Shown: positions 3,508 through 14,649, counted from the stretch's first letter. The stretch: DNA of 64,000 nt from Candidatus Altimarinota bacterium (GCA_043787675.1 JAYVUT010000010.1:16733-80732), one strand, 5' to 3'. Translations and numbers: made by a program. Notes: generated by a model from the sequence alone, not told the origin.

Positions 3508-3849
3508 ATGATTGCCAAAATCCATATCAATCTCTCATCTATAGTAGATAAGCAATCATTATTTGATATATTTGCATCGACTTTTTCTTTTCCTGCATAT
3601 TTCGGGAATAACTGGGATGCATTATCTGATATGATGAGTTCACTTGACCCAGCTGCAAAAATATTTCAAGATCTCAAAAATCCACTCACAGGAGTACATT
3701 TGATACTTGAGAGTTTTGATACAATCGATGAGGCTCTATCTGAGGTTGATATTACTACCTTTAGATCTCTTCTTGTTGATCTTTCGGCTGGGCGAGATTT
3801 TCGCTCGGATCATCTTTCTTTTACTTTTGAGGTCAGATATTCACACTAG
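3508..3849 (+). CDS. Barstar-like ribonuclease-inhibitor (immunity) protein
   Basis: This is an intact 113-aa ORF in the track. Its FPAYFGNNWDALSDMM matches the barstar-family core (FPxYFGxNxDALxDxL). It starts 4 nt after the upstream stop. Confidence 0.6.
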   Translation: MIAKIHINLSSIVDKQSLFDIFASTFSFPAYFGNNWDALSDMMSSLDPAAKIFQDLKNPLTGVHLILESFDTIDEALSEVDITTFRSLLVDLSAGRDFRSDHLSFTFEVRYSH

Positions 3850-3927
3850 TTGATCACACTTTCCTTTGCTTTTTCGAGGAGTTTTTATATACTGTTTCGG
3901 CTTATTTCGTATATTTTCATCACTCTC

Positions 3928-5877
<1,950 letters not shown>

Positions 5878-5880
5878 TAC

Positions 5881-5912
5881 AAAATCCCCCTCAGAAATGA
5901 GGGGGATTTTTT
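5881..5912 (+). terminator. Rho-independent terminator of ftsH (repeat copy 1)
   Basis: The stem is AAAATCCCCCTCA / TGAGGGGGATTTT around a GAAA loop, followed by a T run. Confidence 0.7.
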
Positions 5913-5915
5913 GTG

Positions 5916-5943
5916 TTGGCAAAGTGCGAGAAAATCATAGAAT
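5916..5943 (+). promoter_or_regulatory. Putative sigma-70-type promoter (repeat copy 1) driving the zeta-toxin gene
   Basis: TTGGCA, a 16-nt spacer, then TAGAAT, immediately after the terminator. The same arrangement recurs at 6874-6901. Confidence 0.4.
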
Positions 5944-6741
5944 ATGAATATGTCAGATCAAAAATTTCCATATACAGATGATTGAATAAAGCTCATGGCT
6001 GAATATCTTCAGGTGAGAATTACTACAGGTAATCCAGAAAAATATCAATATAATGATACTTTTATTCCTGTTATTTTCCTTGCCTGAGCTCCATGAGCTG
6101 GCAAAACTGAGTGGATAGAGTCCTTCCCTGATATTGAGCACTATGTCATACTCGATACAGATCTCTATCGCTCATTTTTTGAGGGATATACAGGATCCAA
6201 TGCTTCAGATTTCCATCAGTATGCGAGTCGTGTGATGGATCGGATGTATAGTTTTTGTATCAAAAATAGATACAACATGATCGTGGATGGGACATTTTCA
6301 AACGTAAAAAAGACTGAAGAAAATATTGCTCAGTGTAGAAAAAAATGACTCGCATTTTCGATAATTCTTGTTATGCAAGATCCTATTATTTCATATCTAT
6401 ATACGAAGAAGAGAGAACAAGAAAAATTAAGAAATGTTCCTATGGAGGCTTTTATAGAAAAATTTTATAAATCGATTCAAGTAGTTAAAGAGATACTTAT
6501 AAAATATCCACAAGGACTTGTATTTATAACAAAAAAACTTAAATCAAATCCTAAGTTTTCTGATGTTCAAGTTAAAAACTCAGAACAATTTGACAAATTG
6601 ACAAAATATGAATATAATTCAAAAGAACTGAAACAAATTATTGAACAACTCAATCATGAATGTCAGAAGAATCCTTGATTTTTAACTAAGATATTATGAC
6701 TCCTACTCAAAAACAACTTGCCCACATGAAAAAATCTGTAA
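5944..6741 (+). CDS. Zeta-toxin-family P-loop kinase
   Basis: The Walker A motif LAGAPGAGKTE has both loop glycines encoded by TGA (6085-6087, 6094-6096). The VDGTF-type motif and the size fit the zeta toxin/AAA_33 fold. Frame 1 is open to TAA 6739-6741. Confidence 0.7.
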
Positions 6742-6836
6742 AAACTGCTACTCGTGGCTCGTATGAGAAGCAGATGGCAGTCCTAGAGAAATATCCAGAA
6801 GAGCTCGCACTCGCTCGAAAACTCGCAAAGTTCTAA
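6696..6836 (+). CDS. Small 46-aa ORF overlapping the zeta-toxin 3' end; possible cognate partner
   Basis: The ORF runs from ATG 6696 to TAA 6834-6836 and encodes MTPTQKQLAHMKKSVKTATRGSYEKQMAVLEKYPEELALARKLAKF, predicted helical and basic. No homology was recognised. Confidence 0.25.
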   Translation: MTPTQKQLAHMKKSVKTATRGSYEKQMAVLEKYPEELALARKLAKF

Positions 6837-6870
6837 AATATCCCCCTCAGAAATGAGGGGTATTTTTTTT
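6835..6870 (+). terminator. Rho-independent terminator (repeat copy 2)
   Basis: The hairpin TCCCCCTCA GAAA TGAGGGG plus a T run is near-identical to the one at 5881-5912. Confidence 0.65.
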
Positions 6871-6873
6871 GTG

Positions 6874-6901
6874 TTGGCAAAGTACGGGAAATATATAGAA
6901 T
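6874..6901 (+). promoter_or_regulatory. Putative promoter (repeat copy 2) driving the restriction-modification gene
   Basis: TTGGCA, a 16-nt spacer, then TAGAAT, matching copy 1. Confidence 0.4.
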
Positions 6902-6926
6902 AAATACAAATAAATCCATATATCGT

Positions 6927-9900
6927 ATGTCTCATCTCTTCTCCAAAGCAGTTATCAACGATGCGACTCGCAATATCACTATCTCAGATCTCGAGCTCAA
7001 GATCGCTATACTCCAATGATGGCTCGATATGTATGATGCTGGATCGCTCCAGAAAAAGTCTGAGAAAGAATTTGAGGGAGTGTACAATGAGTCCTTATTT
7101 GGTACTATACTCGGATATACGAGTATAGTGAGTGGAGAGTATACGAGAGAAAAAGAACCACGCAATGAGTCCAATGGACAAAAACCAGATATTGGACTCG
7201 GATTCTATAGTCCTACGCTTGCTACGACTCAGGCAGTTGTAGAGTTAAAAGATGCTGCCACTTCACTTGATCGACCTCAACAACGAGCCGGCAATATGAC
7301 TCCTATACAACAAGCATTCAAATACAAACCCCTCTATAACTCCAAATGGGTGATTGTATCGAATTTTTTTGAGATCAGACTCTATACCGATACCTACAAG
7401 GACTATGAGTCCTTCACACTCCGAGAACTCGTCAATCCTGCAGATGACTATGTCTTATTTCGCCAGTTCTATGCCATATTCCATGCGAGTAGACTCACGA
7501 GTAGAAGTGGTGAGAGTGAGACTGAGTGACTCCTCGCTCGGGTGCGTATCGAAGAAGAGAAAATATCAAAAGAATTCTATAAGCAATACAAATCTCTGCG
7601 ACTCGAGCTCATGCGAGATATCTGGAAAAATAACCCCGAGAGTCAGAATGCATATGTCATAGAGAAATCTCAACGTATCATCGATCGTATCGTGTTCATC
7701 TGTTTCTGTGAGGATCGTGGACTCATTCCTCAGAATGAGCTCAGTTATCGAGTAGAGCAAGCCAAAAAATTTGGATTTGCTCCATGGGAGATGCTCAAAA
7801 AGTTTTTTATCTCGATAGACTCTGGAGATGTCAGTCTCGGTATCCCTGACGGGTATAATGGTGGATTGTTCCGTCCTGATGCGAGTATCGATGTACTACA
7901 TATCAGTGATAGTATCATAGAGCAGTTCGTTGCTCTCGGTCGCTATGACTTCTCTGAGGACGGTGGACAGCTCTCGGTAGAGATACTGGGTCATATATTC
8001 GAACAGTCGATCAGCGATATCGAGGAGATCAGATCCAAGATAGAGACGAGTGGAAAGGTCGATGAGGAGATCATCACAGACAAAAAAGTCTCAAAACGCA
8101 AAAAAGATGGTATATTCTATACGCCTGCCTATATCGTGAACTATATCGTCGACAATAGTCTCGGCAAGTATCTCGCAGGACATGAAGAGGCTCTCCAAGA
8201 CAAGTATGCACTCAAGTCAGATATCAACGAGAAAAACTATCGTAAACGAGAGATCGAGGCATATACGGAGTATCAGAAAATACTCCAGCAGGTAAAAGTC
8301 CTCGATCCAGCTTGTGGTTCAGGAGCGTTCCTCGTACGCGTATTCGACTGGCTCCTCGCAGAGAATCAGCGAGTAGCAAATATCCTCTACACTCAGTGAG
8401 ATCAGATACGGATCTGAGATAGTGAAGACTATTTCCGTGAGATCCTCCGTAACAATATATATGGAGTCGATCTCAACGAGGAATCTGTCGAGATCACCAA
8501 GCTCTCACTCTGGCTCAAGAGTGCTGTGAAAGGCAAAAAACTCGTCACGCTCGATAACAATATCAAGTGTGGAAACTCACTCATCGATGATCCTGCGGTT
8601 GCGGGCGATAAGGCATTCGACTGGAATATAGAGTTCGCAGATATCATGGGGAGTGGATGATTCGATGTGATAGTAGGAAATCCACCGTATGTACAATCTA
8701 GGAATATTAAATTATCAGTTGAGAGAAATTTTTTATGGAAAAAATATCGTACTGATACAAATCATTCTGATTTATATAGTTTTTTTATTGAACTTTCTCT
8801 AACTATTCTTAATACAAAATGAATTTTAAGTTTTATTATTCCAACTACTATCCTTGCAATTCCAAGTTTCAAATCTATCAGAGAATATATAGTATTAAAT
8901 TCTCATATACAAAGTATTGTAACTTTTAATAATATTAAAGTATTTGATGACGCTACAATCAATCCAATAATTATAAGTATTTGTAAAAATAAGATTCAAA
9001 AAGCCACTGACATCTATAGCTATAACCATGATATATTTTTCTTTAATAGAATTATACCAATAAATACCCTTTCATGAGATTATGCTATTGATTTAGATCA
9101 TAGCGAGAAGAAATCTATTATTATTGATAAAGTAAATACGCATGAATTACTAGATAGCATGTATAATCTTATTGGATGAATTAGAACAGGTGACGATGCT
9201 CGCTTTATTGGTGTTAATATAGATTCTTCAGATTCTAAAAAACTCATCAGATGAAGAGACTTCAGTAGATATCATTCAAGTTGGAATGGTGAATATATAT
9301 GGTATCGTCCAGATCTGATGAAAGAAAAACAGGCAGCTGCCCCAAAAGAATCAAAACTCTTTGAAGTTAATAAAAAAATTCTCATAAGAATGATAAGTGG
9401 TGAGAATTTTTCTGCTACACTCGATACACAAAAAATGTATTTATTACAGGATAATGTAATTTTGGAGAAAACACCAGATATGACACTCGAATACTTACTT
9501 GTACTCATCAATTCGAGAATAATTCAATTTCTTTTAACTACCTCAAATATTGCAGTGACACAATCTATGTTGTGAAAACTCAGGATTCCAAAAATCTCTC
9601 TTATAGAACAAAAACCGTTTATCGAACGAGCAGATAGGATGCTCGCACTGTATAGTGAGTTGCATGATAAGAGTAATAGTTTTCTCAAAAACATCTCTAC
9701 AAAATACCATATCGAGAAAGTCACACGCAAGCTCGAAAAGTGGTGGGAGCTTGATTTTGCTGATTTCATAAAAGAACTCAAAGCAAAAATATCACTCGAA
9801 GAACAAGAAGAGCTGATGTTATATTTTGACAAACGCAAGACAGAACTCCGTGATATCGTTGCTCGTATCGATGCAACAGATAAGGAGATTGATGAGATGG

Positions 9901-9965
9901 TATTCGAGTTGTATGGACTCTCGGAAGAGGATAAGAGAGTTGTTCTGGAATATAACAGCAAGTAA
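6927..9965 (+). CDS. Type IIG restriction-modification enzyme: fused PD-ExK endonuclease, N6-adenine methyltransferase and target-recognition domain
   Basis: The N-terminus has PDIGLGF..VELKD (a PD-(D/E)xK nuclease motif). The SAM motif is VLDPACGSGAFL and catalytic NPPY lies at 8679-8690. The C-terminus is an AT-rich TaqI-like specificity region with a coiled-coil tail. Five track fragments share a frame and are continuous across 9 TGA. Total length is 1012 aa. Confidence 0.85.
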
Positions 9966-10039
9966 AACAAAAACAAGCTTGCAATTGCGTATTGTTTTTA
10001 TATACTGTGTTTAGCAGTATATTTTTAACATATATAAGT

Positions 10040-10486
10040 ATGCAATCACCACATACCCAAGATCTTATAGCTCAAAGAGATCAAGTAAAAAACGAGATAA
10101 AAAATCTCGAATCTAAACTTGCAGAGTCACGCATGAAACTTGGTATATTTGAGTCGGCTATAGTCCGCTCTGAGGATATAGATAAAACACAACCAAATAA
10201 AACAGTAATAGTAAAACATAATATTCTTACTTCTATTCCAGATAATAATAAATCCTCCATAGAGGAAAGAGTTATATCCTTTCTTCAGGGCAAAACAACT
10301 CATTCTGCAAGAGCATCAGATATTACAGATGCTCTTGGTGAAGGTAATAGAGATATCAATATGAAGATATATACCTCGATCAATCGTTTAATAAAACAAG
10401 GAAAAATACAAATCGAAAAAGAATACGACTCTATGGGTTCCGAAAGACAACGAAATCGACTCTATCAATTAACCTCTTTTGTGTAA
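10040..10486 (+). CDS. Coiled-coil plus winged-helix DNA-binding protein; candidate antitoxin or regulator
   Basis: This lies within the intact track ORF 9992..10486. The N-terminus has a heptad-like helix (QVKNEIKNLESKLAESRMKL). The C-terminus looks like wHTH (ISFLQGKTTHSARASDITDAL..IYTSINRLIKQGKI). Its stop lies 3 nt before the MazF-like start. Confidence 0.5.
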   Translation: MQSPHTQDLIAQRDQVKNEIKNLESKLAESRMKLGIFESAIVRSEDIDKTQPNKTVIVKHNILTSIPDNNKSSIEERVISFLQGKTTHSARASDITDALGEGNRDINMKIYTSINRLIKQGKIQIEKEYDSMGSERQRNRLYQLTSFV

Positions 10487-10489
10487 AAT

Positions 10490-11056
10490 ATGCCGAATAT
10501 TAATATCGATCTTCGAATCGTTGTAGAAGATATCATGAAAAAAACAACGCTTTATATAAAAAATTTTACTATGTTTGTACGAGATGAGTTCATAGTGCAA
10601 ACTGAAGAAAAGAAACATAATTTACAAAATCATCTTTATTGGCTCAAGGAAAAAATTAGGCTCAATCAACTTCCAGAAGTTATAAAAGCAAGTACAAAAT
10701 GGAGTATCTATTATGTGAATTACGGTATCAATGTCTGAAATGAAATTAATGGTAAAAGGCCATCTATTATTTATAAGAATTCTGCTTGGACTTTTGGTGA
10801 AGATATCATCGTGATACCACTTACTTCAGAGAAAGTAGATAAATCCATTGATCATTTTGATGTTCGTTTACTTCCTGATATGTCAAATTGACTGAAAAAT
10901 CCTTCCTATATTAAGCTCAGACAAATACGCTCAATATCCAAGAAGCGAATAGAATGAGGTATCTGAAAAATTACTGATAAAAATATACAAGATCAGATAG
11001 AAGCTAGTCTTGTAGAGATGTTTGGAATAAACATAAAAAAATCTCCTAACGAGTAG
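10490..11056 (+). CDS. PemK/MazF-family endoribonuclease toxin with a roughly 65-aa N-terminal extension
   Basis: The core IYYVNYGINVGNEINGKRPSIIY..IVIPLTSEK..SYIKLRQIRSISKKRI matches the MazF/PemK signature. The ORF is open across 4 TGA to TAG 11054-11056. Confidence 0.7.
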
Positions 11057-11167
11057 GAGATCAAGGCGCAATCAATATTTCTATTGAGAGGCTACATCTA
11101 AGTAAAACAAGTATATCACTTTTTACACTTAAGTCAAAAATATTCTCTTTACAACTATCATTTTTCT

Positions 11168-11416
11168 ATGCCAAACATCAAAAAAACCAGCAAGTCAATC
11201 GCAAAAATAGCTTCAAAAGAGCTAAAATCTAATAAAAAGGATAAATCTGTCGATGCGAGTGTGCTCGTACAAGTCCAACCAAAAAAGGAGACATCGAAAA
11301 AAGTTGCCACAAAAGCAAGCAAGGAACTCAAGAACAAAACAACTCCTCCAAAAGAGAAGAAAGTAGCTGGCTCTGTACTATCTCAAACACCGAAAAATAA
11401 AAACACAAATAAGTAG
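11168..11416 (+). CDS. Small lysine-rich protein (82 aa) with an internal repeat
   Basis: This is an intact track ORF. It contains two copies of a SKELK..K..SVL.Q unit. It is very basic and low complexity. Confidence 0.4.
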   Translation: MPNIKKTSKSIAKIASKELKSNKKDKSVDASVLVQVQPKKETSKKVATKASKELKNKTTPPKEKKVAGSVLSQTPKNKNTNK

Positions 11417-11518
11417 TATATTGTATACAAAATATACATAATAGTATTCAATACTCAAGTGATTTTATTTGATGAGTTCCCGATTTGGGATATACTATCA
11501 AAGTTATAATCACTCCCT

Positions 11519-11737
11519 ATGCCTCAATCTATATTCGAATCCATCCGTCATATAAACGAACATCACCAAGACTATTGGTCTGCTCGTGAGCTCCAATGAG
11601 TTCTCGGTTATGAGAAATGGGAGAGATTTCAGTGAGTGATCGAACGAGCTATGGAATCTGCCAAAAACAGTAAACAGAAGCTACAAGACCATTTCGCCGA
11701 TACCGGGAAAATGGTCCAACTTGGTTCTGGACTATAG
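11519..11737 (+). pseudogene. dinD: Truncated DNA-damage-inducible protein D (first roughly 72 of about 270 aa)
   Basis: MPQSIFESIRHINEHHQDYWSARELQGVLGYEKWERFQGVIERAMESAKNSKQKLQDHFADTGKMVQLGSG aligns with the DinD N-terminus (WSARQLGKLLGYSEY..DHF..MVKIGS). It then stops at TAG 11735-11737, and no remainder follows downstream. Confidence 0.7.
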
Positions 11738-11781
11738 ATTATAGTATTTTCTCGGGTGATAGCTTTATATCATTTTATACA

Positions 11782-11890
11782 TTACATGTAAATAAAATAC
11801 ATAAAAAGTTTACATGTAATGAGAACATGTAAAGAGTTGTATATATGTTTTGATAACATGTAAATAAAACATATGAAAAGTTTACATGTT
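11782..11890. repeat. Two roughly 37-bp imperfect palindromes plus an extra half-site, built on ACATGTAAA
   Basis: The units are TTACATGTAAATAAAATACATAAAAAGTTTACATGTAA (11782-11819) and AACATGTAAATAAAACATATGAAAAGTTTACATGTT (11855-11890). A lone AACATGTAAA sits at 11824-11833. Confidence 0.6.
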
Positions 11891-11943
11891 CTATTGATTT
11901 TCAGATATCTTTTCATATACTCAGGGCAATAACCTAAAAATAT

Positions 11944-13014
11944 ATGTTTGACCCAAAGATCCCATACAACCATCTGCCTACTTTACCAGGTATCTTCGAG
12001 TATGATCAGAAAAAACTCCTCAAGCTCGCTATAAGAGCAAGTACCGAAGTCTCGAAGCTCAACTGACTCATGCATCTCATCCCGAATCATGAAATCCTGA
12101 TATCACCCCTTCTCGTCAAAGAATCAGTCGAATCATCAGCGATAGAGAATATCCATACGACTACACTAAAAGTCCTAAAGTCTCAATCTCTCCCAGAGAG
12201 CTCTCTCGGGTGACCAGAAAAAGAAGTCCTACACTACCATAGAGCTATTCTCAGATGATATGAGAGACTCAAAAAAGAGTGAGGTATCGGGTACAATGCG
12301 ATTCTCGAAATCCAATCACTCATCGAACCAAACAAGCCATGAGTGAGGAAGCTCCCAGGTACAGTGATCGCAAATAGTCGTAGAGAAGTACTCTATACGC
12401 CTCCTGCCTGAGAAGATGTGATCATCTCACTTCTCTCGAATCTAGAGAGATGGATGCATACTACAGATGACGATATTGATCCATTTATCAAGATGCCAGT
12501 GATGCATTATCAGTTCGAGTCTATCCACCCGTTCTATGATGGGAATGGTCGTACAGGACGAATACTCAATGTACTCTATCTCGTGATGACGGGTAAACTC
12601 GATTTTCCTGTGTTATTCCTGAGTGAATACATAAATAAAACACGACAAGAATACTACCATCTCTTTAGTATAACTCGCAATGAGGGTGACTATACTGATT
12701 TTATAGTATATCTCCTAGAGGGGATTATCGTACAGGCAAAAGATACCACAGAAAAGATAATACGAATCCGTAAACTGATGCAAGAGACAGAGAATAAGAT
12801 AGCATATCTGAACTTAGACTACCATAAGATTACTATGATTCTTTTTTCGAGGCCATTTCTCACTGTTTCTGATTTCGCAGATGCTCTCGGTTTGACCCGC
12901 CAGACTGCTACGAAGTATATTTCTCTCTTAGAGGAGCATACCATACTATCATCACAGAAAGTAGGAAAAAATAAGCTCCTCTTTATACAATCATTTATCG
13001 ATATACTCACATAA
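11944..13014 (+). CDS. fic: Fic-family protein (AMPylase type) with an N-terminal inhibitory helix and a C-terminal wHTH
   Basis: The catalytic loop HPFYDGNGRTGR fits HxFx(D/E)GNGRxxR. SSAIEN fits the (S/T)xxxE(G/N) autoinhibition motif. Track ORF 12418..13014 extends upstream across 7 TGA to ATG 11944, and a TAA at 11935 closes the frame. Confidence 0.9.
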
Positions 13015-13019
13015 ATAAT

Positions 13020-13481
13020 ATGCAATACTGGCTCATGAAATCCGAACCCTCAGAATACTCGATCGATCACCTCATGCGAGATGGATCATCGAGTTGGTAT
13101 GGTGTACGCAATTATCTCGCTCGCAACTATATGCGAGACCATATGAGAATAGGAGATGTGGTATTATTCTATCACTCCAATTGCAAGGTTCCAGGTATTG
13201 CTGGACTCGCTCGAGTGGTATCTGCTCCACATGATGATATGACCCAATTTATCCCTGGAGACAAGCACTATGATCCCAAGTCTACTCATGAGAAGTCAAT
13301 ATGGCAATGTGTGGATGTAGGATTTGTTCAGAAACTCCATAGAATCATATCTCTCTCGGAGCTCCGAGATATAGAGTCACTCCAAACGATGAAAATCCTC
13401 CAAAAATGAAATAGACTCTCGATCACTCCCGTGACTCTAGAGGAATATCAGATTATTCTCAGTCTAATCGAGAAAGAATAA
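13020..13481 (+). CDS. EVE (PUA-like) domain protein
   Basis: MQYWLMKSEPSEYSIDHL..WYGVRNYLARNYMRD..GDVVLFYHS is the typical EVE/thymocyte-nuclear-protein-like sequence. It continues across TGA 13407-13409 to TAA 13479-13481. Confidence 0.8.
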
Positions 13482-14649
13482 TTTTGGTATCAGTTTTGCT
13501 ATACTCCTGGAACTCATATTTCCCAGCTTGGATCTGTGCATTGACGGCAATATACGGCTTGCCATCTGTAGTGATCCATTTGCGATGTACTGGTCGTACG
13601 GAGAGCTCTAGAGAATAGGTTTCTCTGAAATAGTCTTGTACATATCTGCGAGTATCACGATCGAGCGAGGGAGCTAGGATGAACGGAGTGTACTCACTCA
13701 TACTGAGAGAATAATATATCCGATGATCCTGGTGCAGTATGACGACTACCTGGGCATCAGGAGTAGGGAAGGATACGGATATCTTTTTTTCTATGATTTC
13801 ATTGTCTCAATTGCTCATATAGAACTCACTACCCGTGAAAATATAGGTATCTCTATTGAACAAGCTCGAATTCTTGGGTTCCATCATACGAGCCCAGTCC
13901 ATGAGTCCATTATTTATGTTTCTGATTATATCTCATGTACTTTTTGTAGAAAAAGTACCAAAACTATTGGGGAGAGAAAAACTCGTACCGCTTTGCTCAT
14001 CTTTTTTATTGTTTTCATCTGACTCAGACAGTTTCTCTCCCCAAACCCCGTTAAGTTCATTGTTTGTATTCTGTGTTGAGGATTCACAGGCGAAAATAGG
14101 AGCTCATGAAACATATTTTTCTATAAAATCCTGAAAATCTCTCTCGATTGTATTTTTCTCATTTTCTGTGAGTTTGATATTTTTTGCTCACTTATAATAC
14201 CTGGAAAATATCGTCTCCAGATTGGTATCCCAGGCGAGTAGGGGCTCTCAGTATCCAAATGCGAGTATAGCTCTCGCCGTATATTCTCCAACTCCAGGGA
14301 GTTTTTTGAGCAGGGACTTATCTCTTGGGAATATGCCACTATATTCCTCACTTATGATTTTTGCAGTTTTGAGGAGATTACGGGCTCGAGAATAGTAGCC
14401 GAGTCACTGATAATATGGGAAAAATTCTGCGTAACTCGACCTAGCAAGATCATGAACTGTTGGGTATTTTTCGAGCATTTTCGTGTAAAATCACACTACT
14501 CGATCAGCCTGGGTCTGTTGGAGGAGGATCTCTGCGAGCCAGACGGTGTAGTTATTCTGGGTATGTTGAGCATATTGCCTCCATGGGAAGTCGTGACGAC
14601 CATTTTCGCTATACCAGTCGAGGAGGAGTTGCCAAGGGAATGATTTCAT
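13453..14649 (-). CDS. mutY: Adenine DNA glycosylase MutY with a NUDIX-like C-terminal domain and no Fe-S cysteines
   Basis: It has WLAEILLQQTQ (catalytic Glu), HhH-GPD LPGVGEYTARAILAFG, and the catalytic Asp in LAWDTN. A single 398-aa frame is open across 9 TGA, checked triplet by triplet. It ends at TAA 13453-13455. Confidence 0.85.

What the first reader, a model, noticed from the sequence alone, without database searches (positions are those of the whole stretch)
5881..13481. A 7.6-kb defence/toxin island wedged between ftsH and mutY
Seven consecutive same-strand units are all conflict-related: zeta-toxin kinase, type IIG RM, wHTH plus long MazF, a Lys-rich ORF, a dinD remnant, Fic, and EVE. 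They carry signs of mosaic assembly, namely the duplicated terminator-promoter module, a truncated gene, a palindrome cluster and a compositionally distinct AT-rich stretch at 8.7-12.4 kb. For an organism with a very small genome this is a large investment. The combination of three different toxin chemistries (UNAG kinase, RNase, AMPylase) beside one RM enzyme may act as an integrated multi-layer system rather than as independent modules.
Basis: inference. Interest (0 to 1): 0.7.

Follow-up and report, generated by a model that had tools for sequence, protein, structure and literature searches.

The report
Mosaic defence island with orphan toxins
A real but fairly ordinary strain-specific defence island sits in a recombination hotspot after ftsH in a stop-codon-recoded bacterium, and two of its toxin genes have unusual conserved partners: a small antisense RNA for MazF and a tiny overlapping gene for the zeta-like kinase.

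Summary
TGA codes for Gly (table 25). The zeta-like kinase, type IIG RM, MazF, Lys-rich ORF, DinD fragment, SoFic-type Fic and EVE calls all hold, and so do the duplicated terminator-promoter, the palindrome cluster and the AT-rich block.

The borders and the interpretation need correcting.
- **EVE is core, not island.** In the four closest genomes ftsH is followed directly by EVE and mutY. The island is 5878-13019 (about 7.1 kb).
- **The site is a clade-wide hotspot.** Other Gracilibacteria carry different RM, GmrSD-like or AIPR genes at the same junction.
- **The island is a mosaic of separately mobile modules.** I found no evidence for an integrated system.
- **"UNAG kinase" is not supported.** The GTXR motif is absent.
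- **wHTH travels with the RM gene, not with MazF.**

Two new points emerged.
- The long MazF has no conserved protein partner. All 8 loci examined carry a convergent, roughly 69-nt structured sRNA (window 11035-11103, minus strand; covariation supported; absent from Rfam). It is a candidate RNA antitoxin.
- The zeta-like gene is followed by an overlapping 46-aa ORF (6696-6836) under strong purifying selection. This cassette sits at the left edge of RM islands in four lineages.

The island itself is ordinary. The two toxin modules are new variants.

The parts
3925..5877 (+). ftsH, the conserved left flank of the hotspot (not part of the island)
   Evidence: Pfam AAA + Peptidase_M41. Syntenic der, TraB-like gene, barstar, ftsH in relatives.
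5867..5944 (+). Terminator-promoter module, copy 1: ftsH terminator hairpin CCCCTCAGAAATGAGGGG, then TTGGCA-16-TAGAAT
   Evidence: A similarly placed hairpin + T-run follows ftsH in empty-site relatives.
5944..6741 (+). Zeta-toxin-family P-loop kinase (265 aa). Walker A K54 and Asp73 (= zeta Asp67) are present. The UNAG-binding GTXR motif is replaced by G116-T-F-S119.
   Evidence: Pfam 93 bits. Alignment to PezT and zeta. Motif definition from PMC6362051. About 24 related clusters.
6696..6836 (+). Conserved 46-aa small ORF overlapping the zeta 3' end by 46 nt. Candidate cognate antitoxin or partner.
   Evidence: Last 29 residues identical in the window, L100/L101 and L102, with single substitutions in L007 and L034. 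Synonymous vs non-synonymous codon differences 21:5 for window vs L102. Family of 6 representative clusters among 1.84e9 proteins. No Pfam, NCBIfam, PHROG or PDB match.
6823..6902 (+). Terminator-promoter module, copy 2 (about 85-90% identical to copy 1). Terminates zeta/small ORF and provides the promoter for the RM gene.
6927..9965 (+). Type IIG restriction-modification enzyme (1012 aa): PD...ELK (aa 87-108), motif I DPACGSGAFL (aa 460), NPPY (aa 585), TaqI_C-like specificity domain. Chimeric: GC drops from 0.46 to 0.24 exactly at NPPY (nt 8679).
10040..10486 (+). 148-aa protein: coiled-coil helix plus winged-helix-like module. Linked to the RM gene; probable DNA-binding regulator.
   Evidence: AlphaFold pLDDT 75. 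Foldseek hits to PadR/MarR/Fur/BlaI winged helices, E about 2e-3. Only 2 homologous clusters. In L081/L082 it follows a homologous RM C-terminus, and DNA homology to the window stops at 10497.
10490..11056 (+). Long MazF/PemK endoribonuclease (188 aa) with a conserved 70-aa N-terminal extension (KKHNLxNH motif). Arg90 and Thr112 align with the R and T of B. subtilis EndoA that I recall as catalytic.
11035..11103 (-). Convergent ~69-nt structured sRNA gene: invariant 5' ACUUAGAUGUARCCU, P1 enclosing hairpin P2, then terminator hairpin P3 + U-run. It overlaps the last 22 nt of mazF. Candidate RNA antitoxin or regulator of long MazF.
   Evidence: Present in 8 of 8 long-mazF loci. Same fold from independent MFE predictions, z down to -7.5. 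Plus strand much weaker. Covariation: 88% paired vs 74±2 in shuffles (0/500), 20 double-change cells (0/500). No Rfam match. The covariance model hits only these loci in 0.93 Mb.
11104..11140 (-). Promoter of the sRNA: extended -10 TGATATACT ending 6 nt before the transcript start, and -35 TTGACT
   Evidence: TTGACT-16-TATACT with TG. The -10 box sits at the identical distance in all 8 loci.
11168..11416 (+). Lys-rich 82-aa protein made of two ~40-aa repeats of a phage-associated family of unknown function
   Evidence: phrog_5079, E 2e-16, two stretches. 73% identical homolog after mazF in L090; 29 synonymous vs 23 non-synonymous codon differences.
11519..11737 (+). Short DinD/Bro-N N-terminal ORF (72 aa), equal to the first quarter of DinD
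   Evidence: NCBIfam DinD positions 11-78 of 288, E 4e-25. Pfam Bro-N positions 2-60 of 96. L090 and L010 have longer or full-length versions. L010 also has a 70-aa copy ending at the same position next to EVE.
11784..11889 (.). Cluster of five ACATGT-centred palindromes (TTACATGTAA type) 55-160 nt upstream of Fic. Probable operator array.
   Evidence: 5 of the 6 ACATGT sites in 64 kb..
11944..13014 (+). SoFic-type Fic protein (356 aa): catalytic HPFYDGNGRTGR (aa 195), SSAIEN segment matching the inhibitory-helix motif (aa 64), C-terminal wHTH
   Evidence: PADLOC SoFic 328 bits. PDB SoFic structures 224-233 bits, full length. NCBIfam SoFic 309 bits, below the 550-bit equivalog cutoff.
13020..13481 (+). 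EVE-domain protein, the conserved right flank (not part of the island). Overlaps convergent mutY by 29 nt.
   Evidence: Directly follows ftsH in L002, L003, L004 and L039. Paired with mutY in L005, L006, L010 and L035..

Best explanation
Window 5878-13019 is a strain-specific accessory island of about 7.1 kb. It occupies a clade-wide recombination hotspot between ftsH and the conserved EVE-mutY pair of a UGA=Gly Gracilibacteria genome.

It is a patchwork of at least five separately mobile modules, each with its own regulation. They are not one integrated machine.

1. A zeta-family P-loop kinase of unknown substrate, plus an overlapping and strongly conserved 46-aa ORF. The pair is bracketed by a duplicated ftsH terminator-promoter. 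Inferred: a toxin with a downstream antitoxin or partner.
2. A chimeric type IIG RM enzyme whose region downstream of NPPY (including the specificity domain) was swapped, plus a winged-helix protein that travels with it. Inferred: a regulator.
3. A long MazF RNase plus a convergent 69-nt structured sRNA. This pair is the only unit conserved across all long-MazF loci. Inferred: the sRNA restrains MazF, either by pairing with the read-through 3' end of the mazF mRNA or by binding the protein.
4. A phage-family Lys-rich protein plus a short DinD/Bro-N ORF.
5. A SoFic-type, auto-inhibited Fic AMPylase with an upstream palindromic operator array.

The modules were most likely assembled by homologous or illegitimate recombination among code-25 genomes, since the larger genes all carry in-frame TGA. 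Shown: anatomy, variability, module separability, RNA structure and linkage. Inferred: toxicity, antitoxin roles and any anti-phage function.
For: - **Empty site.** Four closest relatives have ftsH, a terminator and about 20 nt, then EVE.
- **Same junction, other cargo.** C5-MTase + AIPR, GmrSD_N-domain protein, Type ISP-like RM + DUF3800 + DinD, N6/N4-MTase + putative nucleases + IS1595, ResIII, or zeta.
- **Module separability.** Zeta + small ORF occurs next to DpnII-type RM genes (L102) and type I RM genes at tRNA-Lys (L100/L101). The small ORF occurs alone with a methyltransferase-like ORF (L034). RM + wHTH occurs without MazF. Long MazF + sRNA occurs in 8 different contexts.
- **Breakpoints.** Homology to L081/L082 ends at 10497. 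The GC break is at NPPY, nt 8679. The terminator-promoter is duplicated. DinD is truncated.
- **sRNA.**
- **Catalytic motifs.**
- **Recoding.** In-frame TGA in zeta (7), RM (10), mazF (4) and fic (6).
Against: - No expression or activity data exist.
- Toxin modules sit next to RM genes repeatedly: zeta/small ORF precedes RM or methyltransferase genes in 4 of 4 loci with downstream sequence, and long MazF is next to RM genes in 4 of 9. Some functional coupling with RM cannot be excluded.
- The families are tiny (9 MazF clusters, 6 small-ORF clusters) and many contigs are short, so linkage statistics rest on few independent lineages.
- The long-MazF structure model failed (pLDDT 35), so the role of the N-terminal extension, possibly a cis-inhibitor, is open.
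- No mobility gene is present in the window's island.
Confidence: 0.75

Rival explanations
1. One reading: the RM enzyme and three toxins form one integrated, co-regulated, multi-layer defence system.
For: All genes are on the same strand and tightly packed. Toxin modules recur next to RM genes in other genomes.
Against: No relative carries the same combination. Each module occurs without the others. There are internal terminators and promoters, sharp composition and homology breakpoints between modules, and SoFic matches a single-gene PADLOC model.
Confidence: 0.08
2. The wHTH protein is the type II (protein) antitoxin of the long MazF. The downstream RNA element would then be only a terminator or 3'-UTR feature.
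For: wHTH lies 3 nt upstream of mazF in the window, and the same adjacency is seen in L090. Many type II antitoxins are DNA-binding proteins.
Against: Six other long-mazF loci lack any wHTH homolog upstream: HsdS, an FtsW/RodA-like C-terminus, unrelated 140-aa and 218-aa ORFs, or no gene. wHTH follows an RM gene without MazF in L081/L082. The RNA element has its own conserved promoter, invariant single-stranded nucleotides and minus-strand-specific G.U pairs.
Confidence: 0.15
3. The long MazF is auto-inhibited by its own conserved N-terminal 70-aa extension, a cis-acting antitoxin as I recall for EzeT among zeta toxins. The sRNA would then have another role, such as transcriptional interference or an unrelated trans-acting regulator.
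For: The extension is conserved across the family, with invariant residues such as KKHN, N47, H48 and W51. No protein partner is conserved.
Against: No structural support, because the model failed. It does not explain why the sRNA co-transfers with mazF in 8 of 8 loci and is better conserved than mazF codons.
Confidence: 0.2
4. The island is the decayed remnant of a prophage or integrative element, not a defence island as such.
For: Bro-N/DinD, the phrog_5079 Lys-rich protein and Fic are common phage accessory genes. L100/L101 carry the zeta cassette next to tRNA-Lys. L013 has an IS1595 transposase.
Against: There are no integrase, structural or replication genes, and no att-like direct repeats at the borders other than the terminator module inside the island. 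No relatives of long MazF or the small ORF were found in IMG/VR. Occupants in relatives are mostly RM-type genes.
Confidence: 0.15

Closest known systems
Defence islands at core-gene-flanked hotspots (as described for E. coli and other pan-genomes; my own knowledge)
   Same: Variable cargo of RM, type IV restriction-like, Abi-like and toxin genes between conserved flanking genes. Empty sites in close relatives. No integrase needed.
   Different: The hotspot is ftsH|EVE-mutY in UGA=Gly Gracilibacteria. All the larger cargo genes are recoded, so exchange appears confined to code-25 lineages.
Type I toxin-antitoxin systems with 3'-overlapping convergent antisense RNA (B. subtilis txpA/RatA, bsrG/SR4; my own knowledge)
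   Same: A small RNA transcribed convergently from its own promoter, ending in a terminator at or inside the toxin gene's 3' end, and complementary to the toxin mRNA 3' region.
   Different: The toxin is a 188-aa MazF-family RNase, not a small membrane peptide. The sRNA's unpaired nucleotides are invariant across the family, which simple cis-antisense pairing does not require. Overlap with the ORF ranges from 0 to 48 nt.
Type III toxin-antitoxin systems (ToxIN, CptIN, TenpIN; PMC5086642)
   Same: An endoribonuclease toxin with a MazF/Kid-like fold, partnered with a structured non-coding RNA instead of a protein.
   Different: Type III antitoxins are tandem repeats upstream of the toxin gene, on the same strand, separated from it by a terminator. 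Here the RNA is single-copy, downstream and on the opposite strand, and the toxin is a sequence-detectable PemK/MazF member.
Epsilon/zeta and PezAT type II systems
   Same: Zeta_toxin-family P-loop kinase with Walker A and the catalytic Asp. A small adjacent ORF is a candidate antitoxin.
   Different: The GTXR UNAG-binding motif is absent. The small ORF is downstream and overlapping, not upstream. It has no detectable similarity to epsilon or PezA, and it is more conserved than the kinase.
MmeI-like type IIG RM enzymes
   Same: A single polypeptide with an N-terminal PD-ExK nuclease motif, a gamma-class N6-adenine methyltransferase (motif I, NPPY) and a C-terminal specificity domain.
   Different: Composition shows a recombinant junction exactly at NPPY. 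A dedicated coiled-coil + winged-helix gene follows it in two lineages.
SoFic single-gene defence system / class II Fic AMPylase
   Same: Full-length homology to SoFic structures, an intact HxFx(D/E)GNGRxxR loop, the SSxIEN segment I recall as the inhibitory motif, and a C-terminal wHTH.
   Different: Below NCBIfam's equivalog cutoff (309 vs 550 bits). Preceded by an unusual array of five ACATGT palindromes.

Membership tests
Genomic (defence) island in a hotspot | Absent from close relatives with otherwise conserved flanks | tested here: met
   L002, L003, L004 and L039 have ftsH, a terminator, then EVE and mutY.
Genomic (defence) island in a hotspot | The same junction holds different cargo in other genomes | tested here: met
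   L005, L006, L009, L010, L013, L014, L007, L102 and L034.
Genomic (defence) island in a hotspot | Cargo recognised by defence-system models | tested here: met
   PADLOC REase_MTase_IIG 409 bits and SoFic 328 bits. Zeta, MazF, wHTH, Lys-rich and EVE have no PADLOC hit.
Zeta/PezT UNAG kinase toxin | Walker A P-loop and catalytic Asp (zeta D67) | tested here: met
   GAPGAGKT (K54). D73 aligns with zeta D67.
Zeta/PezT UNAG kinase toxin | GTXR UNAG-binding motif (zeta G117-T121) | tested here: not met
   The aligned segment is G116-T-F-S119-N120, and L100 and L102 have the same. Motif definition from PMC6362051. NCBIfam PezT 28 bits vs cutoff 470.
Zeta/PezT UNAG kinase toxin | Upstream epsilon/PezA-type antitoxin gene | tested here: not met
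   Only a 66-nt terminator-promoter lies between ftsH and zeta. tRNA-Lys is upstream in L100. The conserved partner is a downstream 46-aa ORF.
Type II MazEF toxin-antitoxin | PemK/MazF fold with catalytic Arg and Thr | tested here: met
   Pfam PemK 63 bits. R90 and T112 align with the R and T of EndoA that I recall as catalytic (R25, T48).
Type II MazEF toxin-antitoxin | Conserved adjacent protein antitoxin (MazE or similar) | tested here: not met
   Upstream neighbours are unrelated across 8 loci.
Type III toxin-antitoxin | Tandem RNA repeats upstream of the toxin, separated by a terminator | tested here: not met
   None of the loci has an upstream repeat array; one has an FtsW/RodA-like coding sequence 10 nt upstream. 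The RNA is single-copy, downstream and antisense. Definition from PMC5086642.
Type I toxin-antitoxin (antisense RNA) | Independently transcribed antisense sRNA overlapping the toxin transcript | tested here: inconclusive
   The promoter, terminator and structure are conserved on the minus strand. Overlap with the ORF is 0-48 nt, and overlap with the mRNA depends on read-through, which is not testable here. No conserved trans target was found in the mazF 5' region.
Type I toxin-antitoxin (antisense RNA) | Toxin is a small hydrophobic peptide | tested here: not met
   The toxin candidate is a 188-aa soluble RNase-family protein.
Type IIG RM enzyme | Fused nuclease, N6-adenine methyltransferase and specificity domain in one polypeptide | tested here: met
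   MmeI_N (weak), Eco57I, N6_Mtase and TaqI_C. PD...ELK, motif I and NPPY located. Nuclease activity itself is not testable here.
SoFic / class II Fic AMPylase | HxFx(D/E)GNGRxxR active-site loop and N-terminal (S/T)xxxE(G/N) inhibitory motif | tested here: met
   HPFYDGNGRTGR at aa 195 and SSAIEN at aa 64. Full-length alignment to SoFic structures. The motif definitions are from my own knowledge.
Rfam-described RNA families | Match at gathering score | tested here: not met
   No hit in the window at gathering score. Best E 4.9 in the local E-value scan.

The most novel reading that the evidence does not exclude
The long MazF plus its convergent 69-nt sRNA is a new kind of toxin-antitoxin pair, in which a bona fide MazF-family RNase is held in check by a structured RNA rather than by MazE. 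The sRNA's invariant 5' arm would act as a protein-binding decoy or pseudo-substrate. In parallel, the zeta-like kinase plus its overlapping 46-aa downstream ORF is a new inverted-order zeta-family pair with a non-UNAG substrate. Both are confined to UGA-recoded bacteria and act as compact modules that ride with, and perhaps back up, restriction-modification islands.
Probability: 0.3. Interest if true: 0.75.

Novelty: new variant of a known kind. Interest (0 to 1): 0.55.

Why it matters
- **Hotspot in a reduced genome.** Very small, host-dependent, stop-codon-recoded bacteria keep a classical defence-island hotspot. The cargo turns over between species yet stays within the recoded gene pool, which gives a natural view of how an alternative genetic code channels horizontal transfer.
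- **MazF with an RNA partner.** It points to a MazF toxin whose only conserved partner is a small RNA. If confirmed, this would blur the boundary between type I, II and III toxin-antitoxin systems and add an RNA family not present in Rfam.
- **An atypical zeta-like kinase.** It flags a zeta-like kinase with a non-canonical substrate site and a strongly conserved micro-ORF partner.
- **Annotation under table 11.** Such pipelines fragment these genes and miss both partners.

Tried and rejected
- **AlphaFold model of the long MazF family** (8 sequences): pLDDT 35, unusable, so there is no inference on the N-terminal extension.
- **Public scans with the sRNA core pattern**: the metagenome and viral collections gave only one true hit (the L085 contig). 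The rest lacked the hairpins and terminator and I treated them as chance.
- **Conserved trans target for the sRNA 5' arm in the mazF mRNA**: duplex energies equal those of shuffles and positions are not conserved. Rejected.
- **The acidic 140-aa ORF upstream of mazF in L085 as a wHTH homolog**: no similarity.
- **MAFFT fixed-column pair counts**: these misregistered the hairpins, so I used independent folds and a CM-guided alignment. That alignment leans towards the structure.
- **Homology between the ftsH 3' end and the sequence before module copy 2**: weak and not conclusive.
- **Small ORF against PDB, Pfam, NCBIfam and PHROGs**: nothing significant. The Pol beta 8-kDa resemblance has E 0.34 and is only a lead.
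- **IMG/VR scans for long MazF and the small ORF**: no relatives.
- **dinD coordinates**: they were one base off, so the tblastn and GC3 values for that ORF are invalid there. Corrected.

Full report
**Genetic code and gene map**

Under table 11 the region is shredded into short ORFs. Reading TGA through raises the summed length of ORFs of at least 150 aa from 4,432 to 32,240 aa. TGA falls on Walker-A glycines of the zeta-like protein (G48, G51) and within FtsH.

The plus-strand genes, with supporting evidence, are:

| Gene | Coordinates | Note |
|---|---|---|
| ftsH | 3925-5877 | left flank |
| zeta-like kinase | 5944-6741 | Pfam Zeta_toxin 93 bits |
| 46-aa ORF | 6696-6836 | overlaps zeta 3' end |
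| type IIG RM | 6927-9965 | PADLOC 409 bits |
| 148-aa protein | 10040-10486 | no family hit |
| long MazF | 10490-11056 | PemK 63 bits, residues 71-177 |
| Lys-rich ORF | 11168-11416 | phrog_5079 |
| short DinD/Bro-N ORF | 11519-11737 | DinD positions 11-78 of 288 |
| SoFic-type Fic | 11944-13014 | PADLOC SoFic 328 bits |
| EVE | 13020-13481 | right flank |

Convergent mutY lies at 13453-14649 on the minus strand.

**Check of the non-coding observations**

- The terminator-promoter module (hairpin CCCCTCAGAAATGAGGGG, T-run, TTGGCA-16-TAGAAT) occurs exactly twice in 64 kb, at 5867-5944 and 6823-6902, bracketing the zeta cassette.
- Five of the window's six ACATGT hexamers lie within 11784-11889, just upstream of Fic.
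- The AT-rich block is real. It begins abruptly inside the RM gene, where GC falls from 0.46 to 0.24 at nt 8679. That is the NPPY catalytic motif, aa 585.
- The break is the signature of a recombinant junction at a conserved motif that swapped the downstream part of the gene, including the specificity domain.

**Is it an island? Yes, but EVE is outside it**

A scan of one genome per GTDB species with FtsH returned 79 loci. A code-25 tblastn map was then made.

- The four closest relatives with flanks (L002, L003, L004, L039; FtsH 85-91% identical) share der, a TraB-like gene, barstar, ftsH, EVE, mutY(-) and the next four genes.
- In those four, only a terminator hairpin and about 20 nt separate ftsH from EVE.
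- EVE (66-80% identical) is paired with mutY in the relatives that retain it, so it is core context.
- The island is therefore 5878-13019, about 7.1 kb.

More distant relatives carry unrelated cargo at the same junction:

| Locus | Cargo after ftsH |
|---|---|
| L005 | C5-methyltransferase + AIPR |
| L006 | GmrSD_N-domain protein and others |
| L010 | Type ISP-like RM + DUF3800 + full-length DinD |
| L013 | N6/N4 methyltransferase + DUF6996/6997/7226 protein + IS1595 transposase |
| L014 | the same methyltransferase + MutH-like nuclease |
| L009 | ResIII helicase |
| L011 | pilin-like protein |
| L007 | zeta homolog |

All the larger cargo genes in the window contain in-frame TGA, so they come from code-25 donors.

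**Module 1: zeta-like kinase plus a 46-aa ORF**

- The kinase keeps the P-loop (K54) and the Asp aligned with zeta Asp67 (D73).
- Where zeta and PezT have E-G-T-x-R-T, it has D-G-T-F-S-N.
- The GTXR motif is required for UNAG binding (PMC6362051), and the same DGTFSN is seen in the L100 and L102 homologs.
- A polynucleotide kinase scores as well as PezT in the PDB search, and the NCBIfam PezT score is 28 against a cutoff of 470.
- "UNAG kinase" is therefore not supported.

There is no upstream antitoxin. Instead a 46-aa ORF overlaps the kinase 3' end.

- Its last 29 residues are identical in the window, L100/L101 and L102, with single substitutions in L007 and L034. The kinases themselves are 63-75% identical.
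- Codon differences are mostly synonymous: 21 against 5 for window vs L102.
- In L034 the kinase has been deleted, leaving about 20 nt of its 3' end, while the small ORF remains. That is the order of loss expected if the small ORF is the antidote.
- The cassette lies after ftsH in the window, L007 and L102, and after tRNA-Lys in L100/L101.
- It is followed by RM or methyltransferase genes in every case with downstream sequence.
- The small-ORF family has 6 representative clusters among 1.84 billion proteins and no annotation.

**Module 2: RM plus wHTH**

- The 148-aa protein has only two homologous clusters.
- Its model has a long helix (4-49) and a winged-helix-like module (74-144), with pLDDT 75. 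It matches only winged-helix regulators, at E about 2e-3.
- In L081/L082 it again follows a homologous type IIG C-terminus.
- DNA homology to the window (about 70%) ends at 10497, 8 nt into mazF, and no MazF follows in the sequence available.
- So it travels with the RM gene. I infer a regulatory role.

**Module 3: long MazF plus a convergent sRNA**

The 188-aa MazF has a conserved N-terminal extension and belongs to a family of 9 clusters. Arg90 and Thr112 align with the R and T of EndoA that I recall as catalytic. Its upstream neighbour differs from locus to locus:

| Locus | Upstream of long mazF |
|---|---|
| window, L090 | wHTH protein |
| L085/L086 | acidic 140-aa ORF |
| L084 | HsdS, inside a type I RM operon |
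| L098 | 218-aa ORF |
| L099 | FtsW/RodA-like C-terminus |
| L089 | about 300 nt of non-coding DNA |

All 8 loci with DNA available carry the same element immediately downstream. Read on the minus strand, it has these features:

- a -10 box exactly 6 nt before an invariant ACUUAGAUGUARCCU;
- a short helix P1 with an R:Y covariation (G:C in three sequences, A:U in five);
- an enclosed hairpin P2 in five sequence versions;
- a terminator hairpin P3 in seven versions, followed by a U-run.

The evidence for structure and specificity is as follows.

- Independent MFE folds give the same architecture in all eight, with z-scores from -2.6 to -7.5.
- Plus-strand folds are much weaker in seven of eight, because of G.U pairs.
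- On a CM-guided alignment, 88% of cells pair, against 74 ± 2% in shuffles (0 of 500) and 32-43% when partners are slid. Twenty cells change on both sides (0 of 500). This alignment leans towards the structure.
- The model finds no other copy in 0.93 Mb of related DNA.
- Rfam has no match.
- Between the window and L090 the sRNA is nearly identical, while 41% of mazF codons differ.

I infer that the sRNA controls MazF. The architecture resembles type I systems with 3' overlap. The invariance of the unpaired nucleotides, and the lack of a conserved trans target in the mazF mRNA, hint at protein recognition instead, as in type III. The defining type III layout is not met (PMC5086642).

**Modules 4 and 5**

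- The Lys-rich protein consists of two repeats of phrog_5079 and has a homolog after mazF in L090.
- The DinD-like ORF is the first quarter of DinD. L090's copy runs on past the window's stop.
- L010 has a full-length DinD plus a second 70-aa copy that ends at the same alignment position, next to EVE. The short form is therefore either an old scar or functional.
- Fic is a full-length SoFic homolog with an intact active-site loop and the segment I recall as the inhibitory motif.
- The palindrome array is a plausible operator for its C-terminal wHTH. That is an inference.

**Verdict**

- The island, its mosaicism and most domain calls are confirmed.
- The right border, the UNAG assignment, the wHTH-MazF pairing and the "integrated system" idea are not.
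- Each module occurs elsewhere without the others.
- The recurrent adjacency of the toxin modules to RM genes is compatible with ordinary defence-island clustering, but leaves a small chance of functional coupling.
- The island is a new member of a known kind.
- The MazF-sRNA and kinase-small-ORF pairs are new variants that deserve experimental tests.

Noticed in passing
window 3508-3849 (+): A Barstar-family gene (113 aa) sits just upstream of ftsH with no recognisable barnase next to it. The preceding 334-aa gene is a weak TraB/GumN-like membrane protein. Barstar is present in the closest relatives (40-71% identical) but was not detected at this position in more distant ones.
   Followed up: partly
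window 13453-13481: EVE and mutY are convergent and overlap by 29 nt. The EVE-mutY pairing is conserved across the clade, hinting at a housekeeping link between a modified-base reader and base-excision repair rather than defence.
   Followed up: partly
window 8679 (RM codon 585, NPPY): GC falls from 0.46 to 0.24 exactly at the catalytic NPPY motif. This suggests the downstream specificity region was swapped by recombination at a conserved motif.
   Followed up: partly
L010 16409-17447: A full-length DinD (272 aa) is followed by a second 70-aa DinD N-terminal ORF that stops at the same alignment position as the window's 72-aa ORF. Both lie on the EVE side of the hotspot.
   Followed up: partly
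L100 4447-4522 and L101 4847-4922: The zeta/small-ORF/type I RM island in this lineage lies directly after tRNA-Lys(UUU). Public gene calls had translated the tRNA as part of a 117-aa 'protein'.
   Followed up: yes
window 5938-5952: The -10 box of module copy 1 (TAGAAT, ending at 5943) abuts the zeta start codons (ATG at 5944 and 5950), so the kinase mRNA may be leaderless.
   Followed up: no
L084 5815-6000: The region upstream of long mazF inside a type I RM operon contains TTTACATGT-like motifs that resemble the palindromes upstream of Fic in the window. This may be a lineage-typical promoter or operator word.
   Followed up: no
L036 7159-7359: Another Gracilibacteria genome has a Fic-like segment (37% identical over residues 171-237) right after ftsH, so Fic genes recur at this hotspot.
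   Followed up: no
window 6696-6836; alignment A9: The small-ORF profile weakly resembles the helix-hairpin-helix region of the DNA polymerase beta 8-kDa domain (E 0.34, not significant).
   Followed up: partly
P0050: A 4,318-aa protein matches residues 4-30 of the 46-aa ORF in 30 separate stretches. This is probably a repeat or low-complexity artefact and was not examined.
   Followed up: no
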